Assembly: GCA_052034935.1 (NCBI GenBank)
Contig: JBPOIB010000001.1
Location: 316,348-380,347, forward strand
Length of the DNA stretch: 64,000 nt
Direction: 5' to 3'
From: Candidatus Moraniibacteriota bacterium
GTDB lineage: Bacteria; Patescibacteriota; Minisyncoccia; Moranbacterales; UBA1568
The notes under the pieces are model-generated. The model had not been told where the DNA came from, did not search any database, and was given only the letters and a program-made list of their open reading frames with translations. Shown piece after piece: positions 2,868-52,655 of this stretch. The position numbers and the translations under genes were made by a program. Within the stretch, counting starts at the first letter, position 1; each line of letters begins with the position of its first letter.

Positions 2868-3245
2868 CCCCTGTACAAAACAGATCGATAAGCCGGATTC
2901 TGTACCCTTCGATCACTCTCTGGGCGACTATCATTTCTCTTGCTCGACCGTTGCCGGCCGAATCTTTGCAGTTCTCCCGATGTTTTTTGAGCTCCAAAAA
3001 CCATCTGGCACGACCTTGCATCGAGGTAAGGATTTAGCCGTTTCACCCCCGCCTTTCGACAGGATTCTTCCCGAAGGAAGCCGCGGCCTTTCGGCTCTGG
3101 CGTCACTGCTCGCACCTCTCAAATCGCTTTGGACGGGCGTTACCCGCTACCAGCTACCTTTTAGGGGTCGATGTCCGGACTTTCCACACCGCCCCGTTTT
3201 ATATGGGCTAGCGCGATAGTCTGATCTGTTCTGTAAAGGACGGTC
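2868..3245 (-). ncRNA. rnpB: RNase P RNA (bacterial type A)
   Basis: Minus strand carries the universally conserved P4 strands GGAAAGTCCGGAC (plus coords about 3169-3186) and ACAGAATCCGGCTTATCG (about 2886-2904). Complementary P1 strands ACAGAACAGATC (3221-3236) and GATCTGTTTTGT (2872-2890) bracket the molecule. A sigma70-like promoter TTGACA-N17-TTCAAT lies just upstream. Length about 375 nt. No long ORF on the sense strand. Confidence 0.85.
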
Positions 3246-11426: not shown

Positions 11427-13139
11427 TTACCCTCGTTTTTTGCCGAGACGCTCTTGGAGGCGCTTCAGCCGACGCTTCGCTTCTTGTTCCAATCGCTTGG
11501 CATAGGTGGCATAATCAGCGATTGGCGCCAGCTTACCATCCGCGATGAGATAGGCATGATCGAGTTTCACATGTGAGAGGAAAGTCCGGTCATGTGTCAC
11601 GACAATAAGCGTCCCGGTATAGGCCGAGAGAGCGTCTTCCAACGCTTCGATTGCTTCGAGGTCGAGATGGTTGGTCGGTTCATCGAGCGTGAGAACATTC
11701 GCCCCCTGATGGACGAGCGAGGCGAGGACGAGCCGGACGCGCTCGCCCGGGCTCAGTCGGCCGATCTTCACGTCGGCTTCATCGGGAATGAACCCAAACT
11801 GAGCGAGCATCAGGAGTACACGCTCGCGCTCGAAGACACGATAGCGTTTGGCGAAGTAGGCAATCGGGGTGAGATCGAGCGGCAGATTCTCCCCTTCCTG
11901 CATGAGGTCACCGAAGATCACTCCTTTGCTCAGCCGGACCGTGCCGACAATCGGGTCCAGATGGCCGGTGATTGTTTTTAAAAGTGTCGACTTACCAGCG
12001 CCATTCTCGCCAAGAAGTGCCACGCGAGAACCAAACGGCAGTCGAAGCGTGATACCACTTACAACACGCTTCTCTTTCGCGTAGCCAACAGAAACTCGCG
12101 TCAGAGTCACCGCTGGTGGAGCAATCTTCGTATCGGGTGCCAGCTCGAACTCCAAGGGTGGCCGCTCAAACGGCTTCTCGTGTTCGTTCAATCGATCAAG
12201 CCGGCCTTCAAGCGCTTTGGCTGAACCAGTGAATTTCTTAATGGCACGTTCTTTTTTGTAATTCGAAGCGAGTTTGTCACGGTCCGGTCCGCGTTTTTTC
12301 TTCGTCTCATCGGCCCAGTGGATTTTCTCCGCCGCCGAAGTGACCACTCGGTCGCGCTCACGCTGCTCGGCGCCGTAGAGTTCCTTGGCCCGCCGAAAAA
12401 GATGCGCCTTGGTCTCGGCATAGGTCGACCAGTTGCCATTATAAATCTGGGCCGAATGCTTCATTGGATCGATCGCGAGCACACGCGTCACCACGTGGTC
12501 GAGAAAAGCCCGGTCATGTGATGCGACCAGTATCGTTGTGCCAGAACGGACGAGATAGGCCTCGAGCCAGAGCAGTGCGACCAAGTCAAGATTATTCGTC
12601 GGCTCATCGAGGAGGAGGAGATCGACACCCGAAAGAAGCACAGCAGCGAGACTGAGCTTACGCTTTTCACCACCCGAAAACGTATCGAGTGGACGGTTCA
12701 GATCAAGCGAGACCAAAGCGAGGCCATCGAGTATTCCCTTGGCCCGGTCGAGGAAAGCGTAGCCGCCGAGACGCTCGAAGTTCTCTTGCGCCTTTTCATA
12801 TTCGGCGAGCTTGTCTGGATCAGCGATGTATGGCTCGAGCGCAAGCATTTCCTCCTCAAACCGGCTCACCCCGCTCGAGCGACGGAGAAATTCCAGGGCT
12901 GTCTCTTTTCCTTCGACCTTGGTTTCCTGCGGCAAGTAGCCGACGAGCTTATCTTTTGTGATCGTCACGAAGCCGCGATCCGCTGGCTCGAGACCAGCGA
13001 TGATTTTGAGGAGGGTCGACTTGCCCGTACCATTCTCCCCCACCATCGCCATCCGCATCCCGGCAGGCAGCGCAAACGAGACTTCGTGGAGAAGCCGTCT
13101 GGTACCAAAACTTTTGCGGAGTCGCTTCACCGCGAGCAT
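11427..13139 (-). CDS. ABC-F family ATPase (two tandem ABC domains, no TM; EttA/Uup-like translation factor)
   Basis: Two Walker A motifs (GENGTGKST, GENGAGKST), two signature/Walker B regions, linker between domains, C-terminal basic tail; 570 aa. Confidence 0.88.
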   Translation of the reverse strand: MLAVKRLRKSFGTRRLLHEVSFALPAGMRMAMVGENGTGKSTLLKIIAGLEPADRGFVTITKDKLVGYLPQETKVEGKETALEFLRRSSGVSRFEEEMLALEPYIADPDKLAEYEKAQENFERLGGYAFLDRAKGILDGLALVSLDLNRPLDTFSGGEKRKLSLAAVLLSGVDLLLLDEPTNNLDLVALLWLEAYLVRSGTTILVASHDRAFLDHVVTRVLAIDPMKHSAQIYNGNWSTYAETKAHLFRRAKELYGAEQRERDRVVTSAAEKIHWADETKKKRGPDRDKLASNYKKERAIKKFTGSAKALEGRLDRLNEHEKPFERPPLEFELAPDTKIAPPAVTLTRVSVGYAKEKRVVSGITLRLPFGSRVALLGENGAGKSTLLKTITGHLDPIVGTVRLSKGVIFGDLMQEGENLPLDLTPIAYFAKRYRVFERERVLLMLAQFGFIPDEADVKIGRLSPGERVRLVLASLVHQGANVLTLDEPTNHLDLEAIEALEDALSAYTGTLIVVTHDRTFLSHVKLDHAYLIADGKLAPIADYATYAKRLEQEAKRRLKRLQERLGKKRG

Positions 13140-13415
13140 AGCTACAATTCGCTCAATTAATGATTCCTTACTCTATACTCTTTCTCCAAAAAAATCAAGG
13201 CTTTTATGGCTTAATGAAGCTTCTCCATCATCATTGACCCCGTTAGAAGTCACAATTATTCCCCTTAGTATTTTTTGGCTTAAATATGGGATATTTATGT
13301 TTATTTTATAACACACTACTAACAAACTTCTAACGGGGTTGACTTTTTGATTAAAATTCACTACTGTATTGATTCCATATCTCATGGAAATTTCTTTACC
13401 AACCTGGAGACATTC

Positions 13416-13628
13416 ATGAAGAATCTCCTCATTTTCATCGTGGCGTCCCTCGTCACATGCTGGGGAGCACTCCTCTTTATGGATGCCCTCAATCAACCAG
13501 TCGAAACGGACATTGTTCGCGGTGTCATCGGTTTCGCACTCTTCGTAGTCGGCCAGTGGGTTGCCGCCTACTTCTTCCTTAGACATCACTCCCCTCCACC
13601 AACCGACTCGAAAGGAACCTCATCATGA
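13416..13628 (+). CDS. small two-TM membrane protein (70 aa), first gene of a 3-gene small-protein operon
   Basis: ATG at 13416 preceded by GGAGA 5 nt upstream; predicted helices LLIFIVASLVTCWGALLFM and VIGFALFVVGQWVAAYFFL; the ORF track shows a longer 93-aa version starting at 13347. Confidence 0.5.
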   Translation: MKNLLIFIVASLVTCWGALLFMDALNQPVETDIVRGVIGFALFVVGQWVAAYFFLRHHSPPPTDSKGTSS

Positions 13629-13843
13629 AACTTGACCGTACCGAAAAGGGAGCCCTGACTTCGGTCATCGGTGCTCTGTTCATCGCCTTCATGGGGATCA
13701 TCTACGAAGATCTTCGTCATGATCCAAGTGCGGTCGCCAAGTATTGGCAGAACATCATGTTCTGGCTGATGATGCTCGGCCTCGCACTCTTCGTAAGTGG
13801 CGCCGGCATCGTCTACGGCACTCGCATGCTCACGCACAAGTGA
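13625..13843 (+). CDS. small two-TM membrane protein (72 aa), second gene of the operon (start overlaps previous stop, ATGA)
   Basis: AAAGGA RBS upstream; helices LTSVIGALFIAFMGIIY and IMFWLMMLGLALFVSGAGIVY. Confidence 0.5.
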   Translation: MKLDRTEKGALTSVIGALFIAFMGIIYEDLRHDPSAVAKYWQNIMFWLMMLGLALFVSGAGIVYGTRMLTHK

Positions 13844-13854
13844 AGGAGAACATC

Positions 13855-14088
13855 ATGACGAACAACTTGGCCGATTGGAGGGTTCGACTCATCGAGGCCG
13901 TCACTCAACTCCAGTCCGGAAGTGTTGGCGCGTACGCCATCATCCTCGACGCCGAGAGCTTCGGCGAAGACAGTGCCGTGATGCACGCCTGCCGAGACGT
14001 CCTGGCTGAAATGGCCGTCACAGACGATGAACTCAGACTCTGGTTCCGGAACTACCAGGAACGGATCACGCGACCTGTCCCCGCCTGA
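13855..14088 (+). CDS. small soluble protein (78 aa), third gene of the operon
   Basis: ATG at 13855 preceded by AAGGAGAA (perfect SD) directly after the stop of the previous gene; the ORF track shows an unlikely N-terminal extension from 13744. Confidence 0.5.
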   Translation: MTNNLADWRVRLIEAVTQLQSGSVGAYAIILDAESFGEDSAVMHACRDVLAEMAVTDDELRLWFRNYQERITRPVPA

Positions 14089-14107
14089 CGGCCATGCCCC
14101 GTCACAC

Positions 14108-14156
14108 AAAAGCCGCACCACCGAGAAACCCCTCAACGGTGCGGCTTTTGAATTTT
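14108..14156. terminator. bidirectional rho-independent terminator between convergent genes
   Basis: Stem AAGCCGCACC (14110-14119) / GGTGCGGCTT (14138-14147) flanked by A-run and T-run. Confidence 0.6.
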
Positions 14157-14184
14157 CTCCACCCTATCTATTATCTAAGTACTA

Positions 14185-14745
14185 TCAGCTCTTCACTTTT
14201 TTCAGATAGTCTTCTGTTTCTTGCAGTACACGCTTCGCATTCACGAAGGTCACTTTTTCCAATGCTCGGTTAAATGGGAGCCAGAGTGAACCGATATGCT
14301 CATGAGAGATTTTCACTTCGGTACTCCCATTCGCAAGGGCTGGATAGAAATGGACTATCTTGAAAATCCAAGTGCCCCGGCCTTCGCGCTTCCGACGTTC
14401 ATATTCATTGCCACGTGCCTCGTAGAAATACTTGATACTGACTCGCTCCGGATACACATCGAGTTCACTGATCCCGGTCTCTTCTTCCGTTTCACGCCGG
14501 AGCGTATCAACTTCCGTTTCACCACTCTCGATATGTCCCTTGGGGAAATCAAAATGCCCACTCGGATACTGAAGGATGAGGTATTCCCGCTCACCTTGTT
14601 CCGACCGTCGAAACAGAACGCTGCCAACCGAAACTTCCCAGACCGTCGGGAAGCCGAAAAGGCCAAGTGCCTGGCACAAAAATTTGTTCACAGGAAGGTG
14701 CATATGTCTCCAGATTACAGGGAAAAAAGACGATTGACAAAGCAC
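14185..14745 (-). CDS. NUDIX hydrolase (Ap4A/NudH-like; true start may be Met at 14703)
   Basis: Nudix box GHFDFPKGHIESGETEVDTLRRETEEETGI. Confidence 0.8.
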   Translation of the reverse strand: MLCQSSFFPVIWRHMHLPVNKFLCQALGLFGFPTVWEVSVGSVLFRRSEQGEREYLILQYPSGHFDFPKGHIESGETEVDTLRRETEEETGISELDVYPERVSIKYFYEARGNEYERRKREGRGTWIFKIVHFYPALANGSTEVKISHEHIGSLWLPFNRALEKVTFVNAKRVLQETEDYLKKVKS

Positions 14746-14815
14746 CCTGGATAGGATTAACTACCGCTTCTTCCTCCGATGGTGGTACAACTTCGCTATA
14801 CCGTATAATACAAGT

Positions 14816-16948
14816 ATGTCCTCTGTCTTCTCAATCTTCCGCTGGCTCGCACGCCAAACGAGCTGGCTCATTCTCATCCTCACGCTCGGACTCGTCGTCG
14901 GAGGCTTTTCTATCTATTACTTCGACGCCTCGGAGGCACTCAATCTGGACGAACACCCACTCTCTGAAGCGTCAGTCATCTATGATCGGACTGGTAAGGA
15001 AGTTCTCTATCAGATCTATGGAGAGGAGAACCGGCGCGTCGTGGCGCATGAAGACATCCCCGAATCAATTCGCCTCGCGACGGTTGCTGCCGAAGACGCT
15101 CATTTCTTCACTCATCCCGGTATCGACCTCATTGCAATCGTCCGCGCTGCGATCGTCAATGTCCGAGACAAGGAGATATCCCAGGGCGCCTCGACCATCA
15201 CTCAACAGCTCGCGCGCGCGCTTTTCCTGACCCGAGAGCGAACCTGGGTACGCAAAGTCCGAGAAGTTATCCTCGCGATCAAGATCGAGAAGTCACTCTC
15301 GAAAGAAGAGATTCTTGACCTTTACCTCAACACTGTTCCCTACGGCTCGAACGCGTACGGCGTTGAAGCAGCAGCGGAAACCTTTTTCGGGAAACCAGCG
15401 AAAGAACTGACCCTCGACGAAGCAGCACTCCTCGCCGCAATGCCGAATGCGCCAACTTTGTATTCACCCTATGGTAAGAATCAGAAAGAGCTCGTCGAAC
15501 GAAAAGAATCCATCTTAAAGAAGATGCGCGAACTCGACTTCATCAAGACAGATGAGCTAGACACCGCGCTCGCAGCGAAGACACTCGAAAAAGTCATTCC
15601 GATCGAACGCCGTATCCAGGCCCCGCACTTTGTTTTCTATGTCCTCGAAACACTGAAGCGAGAGTATGGGCTCGAAGCGCTGCAGACAGAGGGGTACGAT
15701 ATCTATACTTCAATCGATCTCGGTCTTCAGAAGGAAGCCGAGGGAATCGTCGCGGACGGAGTCAAGAAAAACCTTCCCCGTGGTGCATCGAACGGAGCGA
15801 TGGTCGCCCTCACCCCGAAGAACGGCGAAATCCTCGCTATGGTCGGTAGCCGCGACTACTTCGATACGAGGATTGATGGCCAGGTCAACGTCGCGATTGA
15901 AAAGCGCCAGCCCGGGTCGACCTTTAAACCGTTTGCGTACGCCACCGCCTTCACGAAAGGTTTTGCGCCCGATACCCGCATTTATGACGTGCCGATTAAC
16001 TTCGGTCCTGATGGTACCGGCAAAGACTATGTCCCGAGTAATTACGATGGTAAGTTCCGTGGACTCCTCACGATGCGGGCAGCATTATCACAATCACTCA
16101 ACATTCCGGCCGTTTCGACGCTCTTTCTCGCCGGGATTCCCGACACAATCGCACTCGCAACTTCCCTCGGCATCAGCACCCTGACCGAGCCGTCGCGTTA
16201 CGGCCTCGCGCTGGTCTTGGGGGGTGCCGAAGTGAAGCTCGTCGATCTGACAAGTGCGTTCGGCGTTTTCGGCCAGGAAGGAAAACGTGTCCCCGCTGAT
16301 GGCATCCTCCGAGTCGTCGACCGCGAGGATCGGGACGTTTATAAGCGCATCACAAATCCCGATACGGTGCTCAAGGCGAACGTCACAAGAGCCATCAACT
16401 CCATTCTTTCCGACAATGCTGCCCGAACGCCAGTCTTCGGTCCTTCGAGTCCGATCGCGTTTCCCAAAGGCACTGGCGTTGCCGCCAAGACCGGAACGAC
16501 ACAGAATTTCCGCGATGCCTGGACGGTCGGCTACACCAGCGATGTCGCCCTCGGCGTCTGGACCGGGAACAACGATAACACCCAGATGGAGGAAGGTGCC
16601 GATGGCATCTACATGGCCGCGCCGATGTGGCGCGCGATGATGGACAAGCTCATCGAGCGCTATCCGCCCGCGCCATTCACCGATTACACCAACGAGGCCG
16701 GATCAATCGAAGGAGCCGACCCGAGCAACATTATTGGCGAGCCGAAAATCGTTTACTATGACCGCAAGTCAGGAAAGAAAATTTCTGAGACGAAAGCCAA
16801 GAAGAAACGGCAGAGTGATGTCGAAACGCGCATCGTCGATGGCGGAACAACGTTTGAATATTCAACTGAAAAAGGCACTGGCGAGCTCCTCTTCAAACCA
16901 TCGAACGCAACTGACCTCCTCAAGATCTACTATCCCGAAGGGAACTAG
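14816..16948 (+). CDS. class A penicillin-binding protein (PBP1A; glycosyltransferase GT51 + transpeptidase)
   Basis: N-terminal TM; GT51 motifs EDAHFFTHPGID and GASTITQQLAR; transpeptidase motifs STFKP (SxxK), SQSLN (SxN), KTGTT (KTG). A perfect TATAAT at 14804-14809 lies only 6 nt before the ATG, which suggests a leaderless mRNA. Confidence 0.9.
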   Translation: MSSVFSIFRWLARQTSWLILILTLGLVVGGFSIYYFDASEALNLDEHPLSEASVIYDRTGKEVLYQIYGEENRRVVAHEDIPESIRLATVAAEDAHFFTHPGIDLIAIVRAAIVNVRDKEISQGASTITQQLARALFLTRERTWVRKVREVILAIKIEKSLSKEEILDLYLNTVPYGSNAYGVEAAAETFFGKPAKELTLDEAALLAAMPNAPTLYSPYGKNQKELVERKESILKKMRELDFIKTDELDTALAAKTLEKVIPIERRIQAPHFVFYVLETLKREYGLEALQTEGYDIYTSIDLGLQKEAEGIVADGVKKNLPRGASNGAMVALTPKNGEILAMVGSRDYFDTRIDGQVNVAIEKRQPGSTFKPFAYATAFTKGFAPDTRIYDVPINFGPDGTGKDYVPSNYDGKFRGLLTMRAALSQSLNIPAVSTLFLAGIPDTIALATSLGISTLTEPSRYGLALVLGGAEVKLVDLTSAFGVFGQEGKRVPADGILRVVDREDRDVYKRITNPDTVLKANVTRAINSILSDNAARTPVFGPSSPIAFPKGTGVAAKTGTTQNFRDAWTVGYTSDVALGVWTGNNDNTQMEEGADGIYMAAPMWRAMMDKLIERYPPAPFTDYTNEAGSIEGADPSNIIGEPKIVYYDRKSGKKISETKAKKKRQSDVETRIVDGGTTFEYSTEKGTGELLFKPSNATDLLKIYYPEGN

Positions 16949-50528: not shown

Positions 50529-50571
50529 ACTATTTCCGTGATAAGAAAATTGGATAGGATTAATTCTAACA

Positions 50572-50620
50572 CAAATGAAAAAGCCCGAGACGCTGCACTT
50601 GCGCGCTTTGTCTCGGGCTT
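50572..50620 (-). terminator. rho-independent terminator after the small ORF 50649..50831
   Basis: Stem GCCCGAGAC (50583-50591) / GTCTCGGGC (50610-50618), then TTTTTCATTT on the minus strand. Confidence 0.55.
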
Positions 50621-50648
50621 CACAGTCTTGTCAGCGTTGCTGATTCGA

Positions 50649-50831
50649 CTAATTGGTGACCACTGACTCCTCGGCCGACTGCCCAGACGACTCTTCGCCT
50701 GGAACGTTCACCGCTTCTACCGAATCACCCAAAGGCCGGTGATAGGTCAGGTAGTGGCGAGCCATGCGCATGACCACCGCACGATGATGGGAGAAACCGC
50801 TCGTTGGCGGCGTTTGCTGTGCATCTGCCAT
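50649..50831 (-). CDS. hypothetical small protein (60 aa)
   Basis: ATG at 50831 with AGGA about 13 nt upstream; stop followed within 30 nt by a strong terminator; sequence MADAQQTPPTSGFSHHRAVVMRMARHYLTYHRPLGD..., no family recognised. Confidence 0.4.
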   Translation of the reverse strand: MADAQQTPPTSGFSHHRAVVMRMARHYLTYHRPLGDSVEAVNVPGEESSGQSAEESVVTN

Positions 50832-50956
50832 GTGTAACGAAAATCCTTATTGTGAAGTTACGGAATACCCTTGCCTCGCTGTTGTCTCGACGAACGAAGC
50901 GGAGATAGTGTATCAGGAAATAATGGTTCCGTCAACTTTCGATTAGAAAAAGCTAT

Positions 50957-50985
50957 TTGACACCAAAAAAGAGGCTGTTTATACT
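50957..50985 (+). promoter_or_regulatory. canonical sigma70-type promoter TTGACA-N17-TATACT
   Basis: TTGACA 50957-50962, 17-nt spacer, TATACT 50980-50985; the predicted TSS at about 50992 coincides with an ATG. Confidence 0.6.
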
Positions 50986-50991
50986 GGGCCC

Positions 50992-51096
50992 ATGGAAACA
51001 TATCGGTCCATGTTTATGCGTTTTATCTGTTCCCTCTCCTTTTGGGAGAAGGGAGACCGATTTGTTTTTGCTCTTGAACGTATCCGCCGAAGATAA
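50992..51096 (+). CDS. putative leaderless 34-codon leader peptide ORF (Phe-rich)
   Basis: ATG exactly at the predicted TSS; encodes METYRSMFMRFICSLSFWEKGDRFVFALERIRRR (5 Phe, 1 Trp); spans hairpin 1 and the antiterminator strand. Confidence 0.3.
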   Translation: METYRSMFMRFICSLSFWEKGDRFVFALERIRRR

Positions 51097-51150
51097 GGCA
51101 CCTCGATAGCAGAAAGAAGCCGGTCTCCCAATGGAACCGGTTTTTTGTTC
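51031..51150 (+). promoter_or_regulatory. attenuator-like leader: anti-antiterminator hairpin, 9-bp long-range antiterminator pairing, and terminator hairpin with U-tract
   Basis: Hairpin TCCCTCTCC(51031-39)/GGAGAAGGGA(51045-54); GGGAGACCG (51051-59) is the exact reverse complement of CGGTCTCCC (51121-29), which forms the 5' arm of the terminator CCGGT(51120-24)...ACCGG(51136-40)+TTTTTT(51141-46). Confidence 0.45.
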
Positions 51151-51179
51151 GCTAACAACCTATCGCAAGGAGTAGCATT

Positions 51180-51371
51180 ATGCTCGAAGGAGCCGATTTT
51201 CACGACCTTCGGATGATGGAGATGGGGCCGTTCCACACCCAAAGAACTCCTGTCATTCGACCAGAAGATACCCAAACTCGTTCTACGGAACCACTCTCGA
51301 AAGCGGCTCCTCCTGGTCCGGAGAAAAAGGAAGTGCTTATTTTCCCAAGTCTTTGGGATCAGGGCGACTGA
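51180..51371 (+). CDS. hypothetical small protein (63 aa) downstream of the attenuator-like leader
   Basis: AAGGAG 8 nt upstream of the ATG; followed by hairpin GACGCC...GGCGTC + T-run (51395-51432). Confidence 0.5.
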   Translation: MLEGADFHDLRMMEMGPFHTQRTPVIRPEDTQTRSTEPLSKAAPPGPEKKEVLIFPSLWDQGD

Positions 51372-51394
51372 TCAATCGTCAGCACCACTCTCGG

Positions 51395-51432
51395 CCGGTA
51401 CCAAACACAGACGCCAACGAAATCGAGGGCGT
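51395..51432. terminator. terminator hairpin between convergent small ORF (+) and rarA (-)
   Basis: GACGCC-aacgaaatcgag-GGCGTC followed by TTTACTTTATCCCAAATATTTTTTTT. Confidence 0.5.
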
Positions 51433-51434
51433 CT

Positions 51435-52655
51435 TTACTTTATCCCAAATATTTTTTTTCCTTGTAGCCTCTTCGGAAGATATTCTTGCGTCGCCTCCGT
51501 CGCATCCTTGAAATCAGGCGTATACTTGTACCCTTCACCGTATCCAAGAGACTTCATCAGCTTCGTCGGAGCATTGCGGAGATGGAGCGGTACCGGTTCG
51601 TTCGGATATTTGGCAATATCTTGCTTCACTTGGCCGTAAGCCATGTAGAGTGCATTCGATTTCTTCGACTGCGCAAGATAGACCACGGCCTGGGCGAGGT
51701 TGACTTCGCACTCCGGCATCCCGATGAATTGGCATGCTTGATACGCTGCAACTGCCTGTGGGAGCGCGAACGAATTCCCCATCCCGACGTCTTCGGAGGC
51801 GAAACGGACTAATCGACGAGCGATATAGAGCGGGTCTTCACCAGCTTCGAGCATCCGTCCAAGCCAGTAGAGGCTCGCATCAGCATCCCCGCCGCGCATC
51901 GATTTATGAAGAGCCGAGATGATAGTATAGTGTTCCTCCCCGTCTTTGTCGTAGAGGAGGTGTGATCGCTCAACAATTGCTTCGACGATCTTCACGGTAA
52001 TCTTCTTTCCGAAGCTCGCGCACGCCTCGAGGATATTGTAAGCCGCCCGAGCATCGCCGCCGGAAATCGCCGCGATAAAGTGAAGTGCTTCTGGATCCGC
52101 CTTGGCACGTTTTGTCTTCAATTCCTCATCTTGTTCCAGCGCTTGGGATAAAAGCGTCTCGATATTTTCTGGAGCGTGTCGTTCCAGAACAAGCACCCGA
52201 GTCCGCGAAAGGAGGGCCGCGTTTACTTCGAAGCTCGGATTTTCGGTCGTCGCACCGATGAGTGTCACCGTCCCATTTTCAACATGCGGCAAGAGTGCGT
52301 CTTGCTGCGACTTGTTCCAACGGTGAATCTCATCAATGAAAAGAATAGTCCGCGCGCCGAGCCGCTGTGTCGCTTTGGCTGCTTCGACGACTTGGAGCAG
52401 ATCTTTCTTCCCGCTTTCAACACCGGAAAGAGAAATAAAGTGCGAGCGTGTTTCGGCTGCAATCAGGCGCGCCAGAGTCGTCTTGCCGCTTCCCGGCGGT
52501 CCCCAGAATAAAAGCGAGGGCACGCGATCTTCCTCTATTGCCTGACGGAGAAATGAACCCTCGCCGAGAACTTTTTTCTGTCCCAGAAAATCAGCCAACA
52601 TCTTCGGTCTCATCCGTTCGGCGAGCGGCACCAGCGGTTCTGTTTCAGTCGGCAT
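51435..52655 (-). CDS. rarA: replication-associated recombination protein A (RarA/MgsA AAA+ ATPase; ORF track extends to 52844)
   Basis: Walker [10 protein letters not shown], Walker [10 protein letters not shown], sensor and C-terminal MgsA helical domain; Met at 52655 gives N-terminus [17 protein letters not shown] typical of RarA. Confidence 0.88.

What the first reader, a model, noticed from the sequence alone, without database searches (positions are those of the whole stretch)
13140..14156. AT-rich mini-island with a 14-bp inverted-repeat pair and an operon of three tiny proteins
Two long convergent genes (ABC-F ATPase and a NUDIX hydrolase) flank about 275 bp that is much more AT-rich than its flanks (13140-13415). 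That stretch contains a perfect 14-bp inverted repeat, ACCCCGTTAGAAGT (13237-13250) and ACTTCTAACGGGGT (13326-13339), separated by 75 bp. The right arm overlaps a TTGACT -35-like hexamer. Immediately downstream lie three tightly coupled genes, with ATGA overlap and stop-SD-start junctions. They encode two paralogous-looking 2-TM proteins of about 70 aa and a 78-aa soluble protein. All three have good SD sequences, and a bidirectional terminator follows. This is one of only two coding islands on the plus strand. The architecture (2-TM pair plus small soluble partner) resembles holin/antiholin, small toxin or immunity modules. The IR pair could be an operator or looping site, or the terminal repeats of a miniature inserted element.
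Basis: seen in the sequence. Interest (0 to 1): 0.6.

Follow-up and report, generated by a model that had tools for sequence, protein, structure and literature searches.

The report
Miniature transposon beside small accessory operon
The 14-bp inverted repeats are the ends of a 101-bp miniature transposon that landed exactly on the upstream edge of a promoter in a Moranbacteria (candidate-phyla-radiation) genome; it belongs to a large, apparently undescribed repeat family, and the three tiny genes next to it form a dispensable 1-kb accessory segment of unknown function.

Summary
The sequence features are real: the AT-rich gap, the perfect 14-bp inverted repeat, three coupled small ORFs and a bidirectional terminator. 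The flanking ABC-F and NUDIX genes are co-directional, not convergent.

The repeat is not an operator. It marks the ends of a 101-bp non-coding mobile element (13238-13338) with 13-bp terminal inverted repeats, CCCCGTTAGAAGT. The element is flanked by a duplicated TTGA, and the right copy forms the first four bases of the -35 box TTGACT. Two related genomes with the same operon have the intact empty site.

Pattern scans found more than 240 further copies, mostly in Patescibacteria genomes.
- 60-67% have an exact 4-bp target duplication (TTGA, TGAA or TAAA).
- Many sit on -35 boxes.
- Many others sit on start codons, where the element's last purine rebuilds ATG or GTG.
- One 93-bp subfamily has more than 30 near-identical copies in different flanks.
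- No transposase partner was found.

The three genes lie in a roughly 1.06-kb segment that is missing from the closest relative and variable in others. Only the 77-aa four-helix protein is well conserved (dN/dS about 0.2). No family, fold or defence match explains any of the three. Verdict: a new MITE family and an orphan accessory operon.

The parts
13140..13415 (.). AT-rich divergent promoter region between the ABC-F start (13139, minus strand) and the ORF1 start (13416, plus strand)
   Evidence: GC is 0.33.
13170..13198 (-). ABC-F promoter: -35 TTGATT (13193-13198), 17-nt spacer, -10 TAGAGT (13170-13175)
   Evidence: Read. The block CTTGATTTTTTT is invariant in the window, L002, L127, L128 and L131. 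Promoter function is inferred.
13234..13237 (+). Left copy of the TTGA target-site duplication
   Evidence: L002 and L132 have a single TTGA at this position.
13238..13338 (.). 101-bp non-coding miniature inverted-repeat element. The left terminal repeat is 13238-13250 (CCCCGTTAGAAGT) and the right one is 13326-13338.
   Evidence: It is absent from L002 and L132 at an otherwise conserved site. It is present in L001, a second assembly of the same strain. Family copies appear. There is no Rfam match.
13339..13367 (+). Promoter of the small operon: -35 TTGACT (13339-13344, whose first four bases are the right copy of the duplication), 17-nt spacer, -10 TACTGT (13362-13367)
   Evidence: The same TTGACT-N17-TAnnnT layout occurs in L002 and L132 (TATTAT) and in L005 and L006 (TATAAT). 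The transcription start is inferred at about 13374.
13416..13628 (+). ORF1, 70 aa, two hydrophobic segments, GGAG 7 nt upstream
   Evidence: Homologues P0013 and P0014 are 67-69% identical. dN/dS is about 0.4. The antisense ORF is broken in L002.
13625..13843 (+). ORF2, 72 aa, two hydrophobic segments, ATGA overlap with ORF1. This slot is hypervariable.
   Evidence: Genes at the same position in L002, L132 and L003 are 19-38% identical. Two hydrophobic stretches recur in the window, L132 and L003; the hydropathy scan merges L002's into a single stretch (8-34). The sequence is a singleton cluster.
13855..14088 (+). ORF3, 77 aa, acidic four-helix protein. It is the conserved core of the segment.
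   Evidence: Four clusters are 64-100% identical. dN/dS is 0.17-0.37. The profile search found 18 hits at E up to 0.001, of which about ten are small proteins. The AlphaFold model has pLDDT 88.
14107..14150 (.). Bidirectional intrinsic terminator shared by the small operon and NUDIX
   Evidence: The stem is a perfect 13 bp. It is kept through compensatory changes: GCCGCAC/GTGCGGC in the window, L002 and L003, GCCGTGC/GCACGGC in L005, and GCCACGC/GCGTGGC in L006.
13143..14203 (.). Accessory segment of about 1.06 kb (element, promoter, ORF1-3, terminator), replaced by 133 nt in the nearest relative
   Evidence: BLASTN of L127 against the window stops at 13142 and resumes at 14204. NUDIX and ABC-F are adjacent in L127-L131 and L257.

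Best explanation
The inverted-repeat pair is the two ends of a 101-bp non-autonomous transposable element (a MITE). The element has 13-bp terminal inverted repeats, YCCCGTTAGAAGT. It was inserted through a 4-nt staggered cut at TTGA, which produced the TTGA duplication.

The target was the first four bases of the -35 hexamer of the sigma-70-type promoter that drives three translationally coupled small genes. The insertion leaves that promoter and the back-to-back ABC-F promoter intact. It widens the distance between the two -35 boxes from 35 to 140 bp. At this locus the element lies upstream of both promoters, so it is probably not transcribed and is most likely neutral or mildly regulatory.

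The element belongs to a large family concentrated in Patescibacteria. The family's ends are conserved across phyla while the interiors drift. I infer that an unidentified trans-acting DDE transposase moves it. The end sequence (CCC...) and the 4-bp T-N-R-A duplication recall the piggyBac/IS1380 superfamily.

The three genes are real but orphan. They form a roughly 1.06-kb dispensable segment between NUDIX and ABC-F in a Moraniibacteriota lineage. The 77-aa acidic four-helix protein is the conserved core. The two small membrane proteins are accessory, and the middle one is hypervariable. My guess is that they form a small membrane-associated complex of unknown role.

Shown here: the insertion polymorphism, the target duplication, the family and its site pattern, purifying selection on ORF3 and ORF1, and presence/absence of the segment.
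Inferred: promoter activity, the transposase type, neutrality of the insertion, and any protein function.
For: Insertion at this locus:
- Exactly 105 bp (101 plus TTGA) is missing in L002 and L132, and the junction reads ...TATAATTGACTTTTTGA.
- The outgroup L006 is also empty.

The family:
Nearly all hits are Patescibacteria MAGs from many candidate phyla.
- The base next to the 12-nt core is C..G in 65 copies and T..A in 50.
- 72 of 121 copies have an exact 4-bp flanking duplication.
- An independent metagenome set gave an exact duplication in 80 of 120 usable copies.
- A 93-bp subfamily has more than 30 near-identical copies in unrelated flanks.
- Two 97.6%-identical copies with different flanks occur on one contig.

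Site pattern:
- 28 of 34 copies with a TTGA duplication have TAnnnT 16-19 nt downstream, against 8.8% of all TTGA sites (p = 2e-24).
- 57 of 70 copies whose duplication starts with TG open an ORF of at least 70 codons.
- At such sites C..G elements turn ATG into GTG.

The operon:
- The promoter is conserved in five lineages.
- ORF3 has dN/dS 0.17-0.37 and ORF1 about 0.4, while the flanking genes are at 0.02-0.04 with dS above 1.3.
- The segment is absent from L127-L131 and L257.
- The lineage is assigned from SecD neighbours.

Literature: piggyBac has 13-14-bp repeats ending in CCC/GGG and a 4-bp TTAA duplication, and IS1380 is its prokaryotic relative (PMC10140906, PMC5718144).
Against: - There is only one copy in the 64-kb window. 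The rest of the source genome could not be scanned.
- No transposase-carrying copy with these ends was found in 1.6 Mb of fetched loci, so the mobilising enzyme is unknown and the piggyBac/IS1380 link is only a resemblance.
- Most interiors are unrelated to each other (121 copies fall into 102 clusters). This is unusual for a young MITE family.
- Arm variants are almost always compensatory (122 of 126). Start-adjacent copies show a 22:2 orientation bias. Both hint at constraints beyond transposase binding.
- The direction of the event rests on few lineages, so insertion here versus precise excision in the L002/L132 lineage is not firmly settled.
- No function could be assigned to any of the three proteins.
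Confidence: 0.85

Rival explanations
1. The two arms are operator half-sites or a DNA-looping pair. A regulator would bind them to control the divergent ABC-F and small-operon promoters.
For: The pair lies between two back-to-back promoters, and the right arm abuts the -35 box.
Against: Both arms and the spacer are absent from L002 and L132, which keep both promoters and the operon. The same arms occur more than 240 times next to unrelated genes, with target duplications and spacers of 60-90 nt.
Confidence: 0.03
2. The element is a functional structured RNA or a portable cis-regulatory module rather than selfish DNA. The stem would be selected for RNA folding, and copies at gene starts would act as 5' leaders.
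For: Arm variants are compensatory in 122 of 126 copies. The terminal pair covaries between C-G and T-A. An internal alternative hairpin lies on the promoter-proximal side in 22 of 24 one-sided start-adjacent copies. The last purine of the element rebuilds the start codon. The stem is predicted in the minimum-free-energy fold of both strands.
Against: At this locus the element lies upstream of both inferred promoters. Pairing does not extend beyond the 13-bp repeat and is no longer in transcribed copies than in -35 copies. The stop of the leader ORF is close to the gene start in only 15 of 57 cases. Interiors are not conserved. There is no Rfam family. The target duplications and the near-identical dispersed copies show DNA-level mobility.
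Confidence: 0.12
3. The 105 bp is ancestral and was lost from the L002/L132 lineage by excision or by deletion between the TTGA repeats, rather than gained in the window lineage.
For: L002 and L132 are close to each other (PBP1A 99.6% identical), so they count as only one independent empty lineage.
Against: The outgroup L006 has the same promoter without the element. Precise loss would itself indicate a mobile element, so the nature of the feature would not change.
Confidence: 0.1
4. The three small genes are a holin/antiholin, small-toxin/antitoxin or immunity module.
For: The module has two small 2-TM proteins plus a small acidic soluble protein. The middle gene is hypervariable (19-38% identity). 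The module is patchy among close relatives. An IS30-like gene sits next to it in L003.
Confidence: 0.1
5. The small ORFs are spurious, and the real gene is the 138-aa minus-strand ORF (13173-13589) that an automatic gene caller chose.
For: The Logan annotation of the same strain calls that antisense ORF. ORF1 is not in the protein collection.
Against: The antisense frame is cut to 54 aa in L002. ORF1 is intact in three lineages with dN/dS about 0.4, and ORF3 is intact in five lineages with dN/dS about 0.2. All three ORFs have Shine-Dalgarno sequences and coupled junctions.
Confidence: 0.04

Closest known systems
Bacterial MITEs such as Neisseria Correia elements, enterobacterial ERIC/IRU and pneumococcal RUP (from my own knowledge)
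   Same: They are about 100 bp, non-coding, bounded by terminal inverted repeats, flanked by a short target duplication, dispersed in intergenic DNA and often next to promoters or inside 5' leaders. They can fold into a hairpin when transcribed.
   Different: The end sequence differs (YCCCGTTAGAAGT). The duplication is 4 bp, T-N-R-A, rather than TA. The ends are conserved across many candidate phyla while the interiors are unrelated. Copies concentrate on the first four bases of -35 hexamers and on start codons, which the terminal purine rebuilds. No parent insertion sequence is known.
piggyBac / IS1380 superfamily of DDE transposons (PMC10140906, PMC5718144)
   Same: Terminal repeats of 13-14 bp that begin CCC. 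A 4-bp duplication with T at the first and A at the last position. Clean empty sites consistent with precise excision or insertion.
   Different: The targets are TTGA, TGAA or TAAA, and never TTAA among the 152 exact duplications. No transposase was found, so the link is a resemblance and not a test.
REPINs mobilised by RAYT tyrosine transposases (from my own knowledge)
   Same: Two short inverted sequences separated by about 70 nt, giving a hairpin of about 100 nt. Compensatory changes keep the arms complementary. There is no transposase inside the element.
   Different: REPINs and the IS200/IS605 type make no target duplication and insert next to a fixed tetranucleotide. Here 60-67% of copies have an exact 4-bp duplication of variable sequence.
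Rickettsia palindromic elements (from my own knowledge)
   Same: Palindromic repeats of about 100 bp, some of which sit in frame inside protein-coding genes. Six such cases were found here.
   Different: In-frame coding insertions are rare here (about 3%). Most copies lie at promoters or start codons.
   Same: Two membrane proteins of about 70 aa with two transmembrane segments each, tightly coupled to a small soluble protein.
   Different: There is no sequence, profile or fold link to any holin, toxin, antitoxin or defence family. The genes sit in a housekeeping neighbourhood (SecDF, ABC-F, NUDIX, PBP1A).

Membership tests
MITE (miniature inverted-repeat transposable element) | Short (under about 300 bp) with no coding capacity | tested here: met
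   The element is 101 bp. Family copies are 84-114 bp between cores, within the scanned spacer range.
MITE (miniature inverted-repeat transposable element) | Terminal inverted repeats | tested here: met
   The window has perfect 13-bp repeats. Across the family the terminal pair is C..G or T..A in 229 of 241 copies.
MITE (miniature inverted-repeat transposable element) | Target-site duplication directly outside the repeats | tested here: met
   TTGA in the window. The 4-bp duplication is exact in 72 of 121 and 80 of 120 copies.
MITE (miniature inverted-repeat transposable element) | Empty site in related genomes | tested here: met
   L002 and L132 carry a single TTGA and lack exactly 105 bp. 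L006 is also empty.
MITE (miniature inverted-repeat transposable element) | Many copies with similar sequence in different flanks | tested here: met
   The 93-bp subfamily has more than 30 near-identical copies, and L091 carries a 97.6%-identical pair.
MITE (miniature inverted-repeat transposable element) | A cognate autonomous element with the same ends | tested here: inconclusive
   No pair of ends 0.5-5 kb apart was found in 1.6 Mb of fetched loci. Whole genomes could not be scanned for such pairs.
piggyBac/IS1380-type element | Ends begin CC(C), with a 4-5-bp duplication | tested here: met
   The family features come from PMC10140906 and from my own knowledge for IS1380.
piggyBac/IS1380-type element | Mobilised by a transposase of that superfamily | not testable with these tools
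   No transposase was linked to the element.
REPIN / IS200-IS605-type palindromic element | No target duplication, and insertion 3' of a fixed tetra- or pentanucleotide | tested here: not met
   The duplications are exact and their sequence varies.
Operator or looping site for a transcription factor | Conserved together with the promoters it controls | tested here: not met
   It is absent from L002, L132, L005 and L006, which keep the promoter.
Described structured RNA (Rfam) | Match to a curated covariance model | tested here: not met
   There was no hit at E up to 10 in 12900-14400. Eighteen loci that carry copies gave no hit other than tRNAs.
Holin/antiholin lysis cassette | Phage context with an endolysin, and membership of a holin family | tested here: not met
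   PHROG hits have E of 0.03 or worse and unknown function. The neighbours are housekeeping genes.
Known toxin-antitoxin or anti-phage defence system | Profile match to a component | tested here: not met
   PADLOC gave only one weak hit (E = 0.009), to a transmembrane region. Pfam and NCBIfam gave nothing above their cut-offs.

The most novel reading that the evidence does not exclude
The repeat family may be more than selfish DNA. It may be a promoter- and start-codon-seeking element that Patescibacteria tolerate or use as a portable 5' leader. T..A-ended copies land on the ATG of (mostly leaderless) genes and rebuild the start codon with their own last base. They are kept in one orientation relative to the gene (22:2) and carry an internal hairpin that competes with the long end-to-end stem. 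That layout could convert leaderless genes into leadered, switchable ones, or allow processing back to a 5'-AUG. The near-absolute complementarity of arm variants would then reflect selection on a hairpin.
Probability: 0.18. Interest if true: 0.75.

Novelty: new member of a known kind. Interest (0 to 1): 0.55.

Why it matters
Patescibacteria have tiny, gene-dense genomes and are usually regarded as poor in mobile DNA.

This repeat keeps the same 9-13-bp ends across many of their candidate phyla. It sits precisely on -35 boxes and start codons, and can turn ATG starts into GTG. It is therefore a practical annotation hazard: in one assembly of this strain (L001) the gene caller chose an antisense ORF in place of ORF1. 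It is also a ready marker for promoters and leaderless starts in organisms that cannot be cultured, and a possible source of regulatory variation between close strains.

It also poses a concrete question: which enzyme moves it?

For the window itself, the result replaces speculation about operators and holins with a simple account. A MITE inserted next to a strain-variable, orphan small-protein operon.

Tried and rejected
- Rfam on the region, on the whole window and on 18 loci carrying copies gave nothing but RNase P RNA and tRNAs.
- Pfam, PHROGs, NCBIfam and PADLOC on the three peptides gave nothing above noise.
- ORF1 and ORF2 are not detectably paralogous.
- The contexts of distant ORF3 homologues are uninformative.
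- Scans of viral contigs for the element found 0 hits. A metagenome scan for the interior of this particular copy also found 0 hits.
- A search for an autonomous element, as pairs of ends 0.5-5 kb apart, found none.
- Clustering of neighbouring proteins, to look for a recurrent transposase-like partner, found only housekeeping genes and sensor kinases.
- I tested whether transcribed copies have longer stems than -35 copies. They do not.
- I tested whether the leader ORF always ends at the gene start. It does in only 15 of 57 cases.
- I tested for in-frame insertion into genes. It occurs in only 6-8 of 212 copies.
- The ABC-F leader/attenuator idea was dropped. The conserved ABC-F promoter lies downstream of the element on the minus strand, so the hairpin is not in that mRNA.
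- The IS30-like gene in L003 is not the partner. Its end shows no such repeat, and IS30 elements make 2-3-bp duplications (from my own knowledge).
- Literature searches for the sequence, and for MITEs or repeats in the CPR or Patescibacteria, found nothing relevant.
Full report
**The observation**

The region 13140-13415 is AT-rich, with GC 0.33 against 0.50-0.62 in the flanks. It contains a perfect 14-nt inverted repeat at 13237-13250 and 13326-13339, separated by 75 nt. One of 400 shuffles of the region reaches 14 nt, and the window holds no other copy.

Three ORFs follow: 13416-13628 (70 aa), 13625-13843 (72 aa, with an ATGA overlap) and 13855-14088 (77 aa, preceded by AAGGAG). A 13-bp-stem terminator at 14107-14150 closes the unit.

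ABC-F (11427-13139) and NUDIX (14185-14745) are both on the minus strand. The AT-rich stretch is therefore a divergent promoter region between ABC-F and ORF1, not a gap between convergent genes. In addition, ORF1 and ORF2 are not detectably related.

**What the repeat is**

ORF3 has close homologues, and their contigs gave syntenic relatives. L002, and later L132, carry the same SecF-SecD-ABC-F / three small genes / NUDIX-PBP1A arrangement. They lack exactly 105 bp.
- The window reads ...CATCATTGA[CCCCGTTAGAAGT...ACTTCTAACGGGG]TTGACTTTTTGA.
- The relatives read ...TATAATTGACTTTTTGA.

So the window holds a 101-bp insert (13238-13338) with 13-bp terminal inverted repeats and a duplicated TTGA. 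L001, another assembly of the same strain, has the insert. The more distant L006 has the same promoter without it.

The right-hand TTGA begins the -35 hexamer TTGACT. TACTGT follows 17 nt later. The same TTGACT-N17-TAnnnT promoter stands in front of the small genes in L002 and L132 (TATTAT) and in L005 and L006 (TATAAT).

On the other strand, the ABC-F promoter (TTGATT-N17-TAGAGT, 13198-13170) is conserved in every relative. The element therefore sits between two back-to-back promoters and upstream of both. The two -35 boxes are 35 nt apart in L002 and 140 nt apart here.

**The family**

Nearly all hits are Patescibacteria MAGs: Saccharibacteria, Paceibacterota, Kaiser-, Zambryski-, Moran-, Uhr-, Falkow- and Gribaldobacteria, Kazan and others. 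Several genomes contribute more than one locus.

Among 121 copies:
- The base outside the 12-nt core is C..G in 65 and T..A in 50.
- The four bases outside that are an exact direct repeat in 72: TCAA or TTGA in 24, TGAA or TTCA in 20, and others.

A second, independent scan of metagenome contigs fixed the left arm as ...AAAT.
- It gave 126 copies, of which 122 have the compensatory right arm ATTT.
- 80 of the 120 usable copies have an exact 4-bp duplication.
- 40 of the 120 usable copies abut a start codon.
- Within that set, a 93-bp subfamily has more than 30 near-identical copies in unrelated flanks, mostly with a TAAA duplication. This is the classic signature of recent transposition.

Two inverted, 97.6%-identical copies with different flanks bracket a tRNA pair in L091.

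Otherwise the interiors are unrelated: 121 copies fall into 102 clusters. Across species only the ends are held constant. Relaxed matching shows an invariant core, CCCGTTAGA/TCTAACGGG, with co-varying inner positions.

No copy was found in viral contigs. No Rfam family matches. The paper library holds nothing on this sequence or on such repeats in these phyla.

**Where the copies sit**

Of 34 copies with a TTGA duplication, 28 have a TAnnnT hexamer 16-19 nt downstream, often a perfect TATAAT. Only 8.8% of all TTGA sites in the same DNA do so (p = 2e-24). The window's insertion on a -35 box is therefore typical of the family.

A second class abuts start codons.
- In 46 of 120 genome-set copies, the last base of the element is the first base of an ATG (38) or GTG (8) that opens an ORF of at least 70 codons.
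- The other flank carries the duplicated ATGNN. In half of these cases a -10 box lies 6-8 nt before it, which marks a leaderless gene.
- C..G-ended copies change the start from ATG to GTG. This shows that the terminal base belongs to the element.
- Of 70 copies whose duplication starts with TG, 57 open a long ORF, against 16% of TGAA sites in the same DNA that are followed by 70 or more open codons (a loose baseline, since positions inside ORFs also count).
- Start-adjacent copies often carry an internal copy of CTAACGGG just inside the promoter-proximal end. The orientation bias is 22 to 2.

Against a purely RNA-level role:
- Pairing does not extend beyond the 13-bp repeat in any class.
- The short leader ORF ends near the gene start in only 15 of 57 cases.
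- Six copies lie in frame inside long ORFs.

**Mechanism**

The simplest reading is a cut-and-paste DDE-type MITE. It makes a 4-nt staggered cut at T-N-R-A, and survival is filtered by what a compact genome tolerates.

The 13-bp repeat beginning CCC and the 4-bp T...A duplication resemble piggyBac, whose prokaryotic relatives are the IS1380 family (PMC10140906, PMC5718144). That is only a lead. No autonomous copy was found in 1.6 Mb of fetched DNA, and no recurrent transposase-like neighbour appeared.

Some metagenome contigs with the 93-bp subfamily encode hybrid histidine kinases. The host range may therefore exceed Patescibacteria.

**The three genes**

ORF3 is real.
- Five lineages keep it, with dN/dS 0.17-0.37.
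- A profile search of 1.8 billion representatives found 18 hits at E up to 0.001. About ten are small proteins that share the motif LI.AI.LLRSG...Y..IL..E.FGEDS..M; the rest are very large proteins matched in several short stretches, which I take to be spurious.
- It models as a confident four-helix protein (pLDDT 88).
- It has no Pfam, PDB-sequence or informative fold match.

ORF1 is kept in three lineages, with dN/dS about 0.4. The antisense ORF that one gene caller preferred is broken in L002.

ORF2 is a hypervariable slot. The versions are 19-38% identical. Two hydrophobic segments recur in the window, L132 and L003; the scan merges L002's into one stretch.

The flanking genes are under far stronger constraint (dN/dS 0.02-0.04) and are saturated at synonymous sites between the window and L002.

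Gene content varies between relatives:
- Three genes in the window, L002 and L132.
- Two genes plus an IS30-like transposase gene in L003 and L004.
- ORF3 alone in L005 and L006.

The whole 1.06 kb (13143-14203) is missing from the nearest relative, L127 (PBP1A 99.2% identical, dS 0.11), and from L128-L131 and L257. In those genomes NUDIX and ABC-F are adjacent.

The terminator is kept through compensatory changes.

No function can be assigned. I guess at a small membrane-associated complex. The holin, toxin and immunity readings remain unsupported.

**Context and verdict**

SecD neighbours place the window in Candidatus Moraniibacteriota.

The repeat is a MITE of an apparently undescribed family that is widespread in Patescibacteria. 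The 'island' is a dispensable orphan operon.

The MITE itself is a known kind of thing. The family's conserved ends, its promoter and start-codon site pattern and its missing transposase are what make it worth a follow-up.

Noticed in passing
L005 431-540; L006 30-60: A different 49-bp insert bounded by inverted repeats (CCCTGTGTAAT...ATTACACAAGG) sits on the same TTGA of the homologous -35 box, again with TTGA duplicated. L006 is empty. This looks like independent hits on the same site by two elements.
   Followed up: partly
L003 19-1035; L004 1-125: An IS30-like transposase gene (HTH_38) lies directly upstream of the small genes. ORF1 is reduced to its last eight or so codons (...PPPTDSKG), so the locus is a hotspot for mobile DNA.
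   Followed up: partly
window 13173-13589 (minus strand); L001 584-997: An automatic gene caller annotated a 137-aa antisense ORF in place of ORF1. That frame is not conserved in L002.
   Followed up: yes
L226 1943-2035; also L192, L198, L149, L162, L247: Copies of 93, 108 or 114 bp lie in frame inside long ORFs. The core plus 6 bp is a multiple of 3, and one frame of the 93-bp element has no stop codon. This recalls Rickettsia palindromic elements.
   Followed up: partly
L142-L255 (metagenome contigs carrying the 93-bp subfamily): Twelve loci encode related hybrid sensor histidine kinases, which are unusual for Patescibacteria. The family probably also lives in other phyla. A few genome hits were labelled Planctomycetota or Bdellovibrionales.
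   Followed up: partly
L121 2157-2283; L123 4004-4247: Tandem elements share a single TAAA between them.
   Followed up: no
L091 3156-3639; L120 2976-3178: Copies flank or directly precede tRNA genes. In L091 two inverted 97.6%-identical copies bracket a tRNA pair.
   Followed up: partly
window 11427-13139 (minus strand): The ABC-F protein scores above the NCBIfam cut-off for 'ribosomal protection-like ABC-F' (NF000355: 393.9 bits against a cut-off of 380).
   Followed up: no
window 14185-16948 and 11427-13139, compared with L127: Synonymous divergence from the nearest relative rises toward the accessory segment: PBP1A 0.11, NUDIX 0.34, ABC-F 0.49. This suggests recombination at this locus.
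   Followed up: partly
window 13215-13227 and 14149-14161: An 11-of-13 direct repeat (TGAAGCTTCTCCA and TGAATTTTCTCCA) lies near both ends of the accessory segment. It may be chance.
   Followed up: no
window 2873-3232 (minus strand): Bacterial RNase P RNA, class A (126 bits).
   Followed up: yes
window 50530-51435: About 900 bp between a peroxiredoxin gene and an AAA-ATPase gene has no ORF of 100 aa or more and no credible Rfam match.
   Followed up: partly
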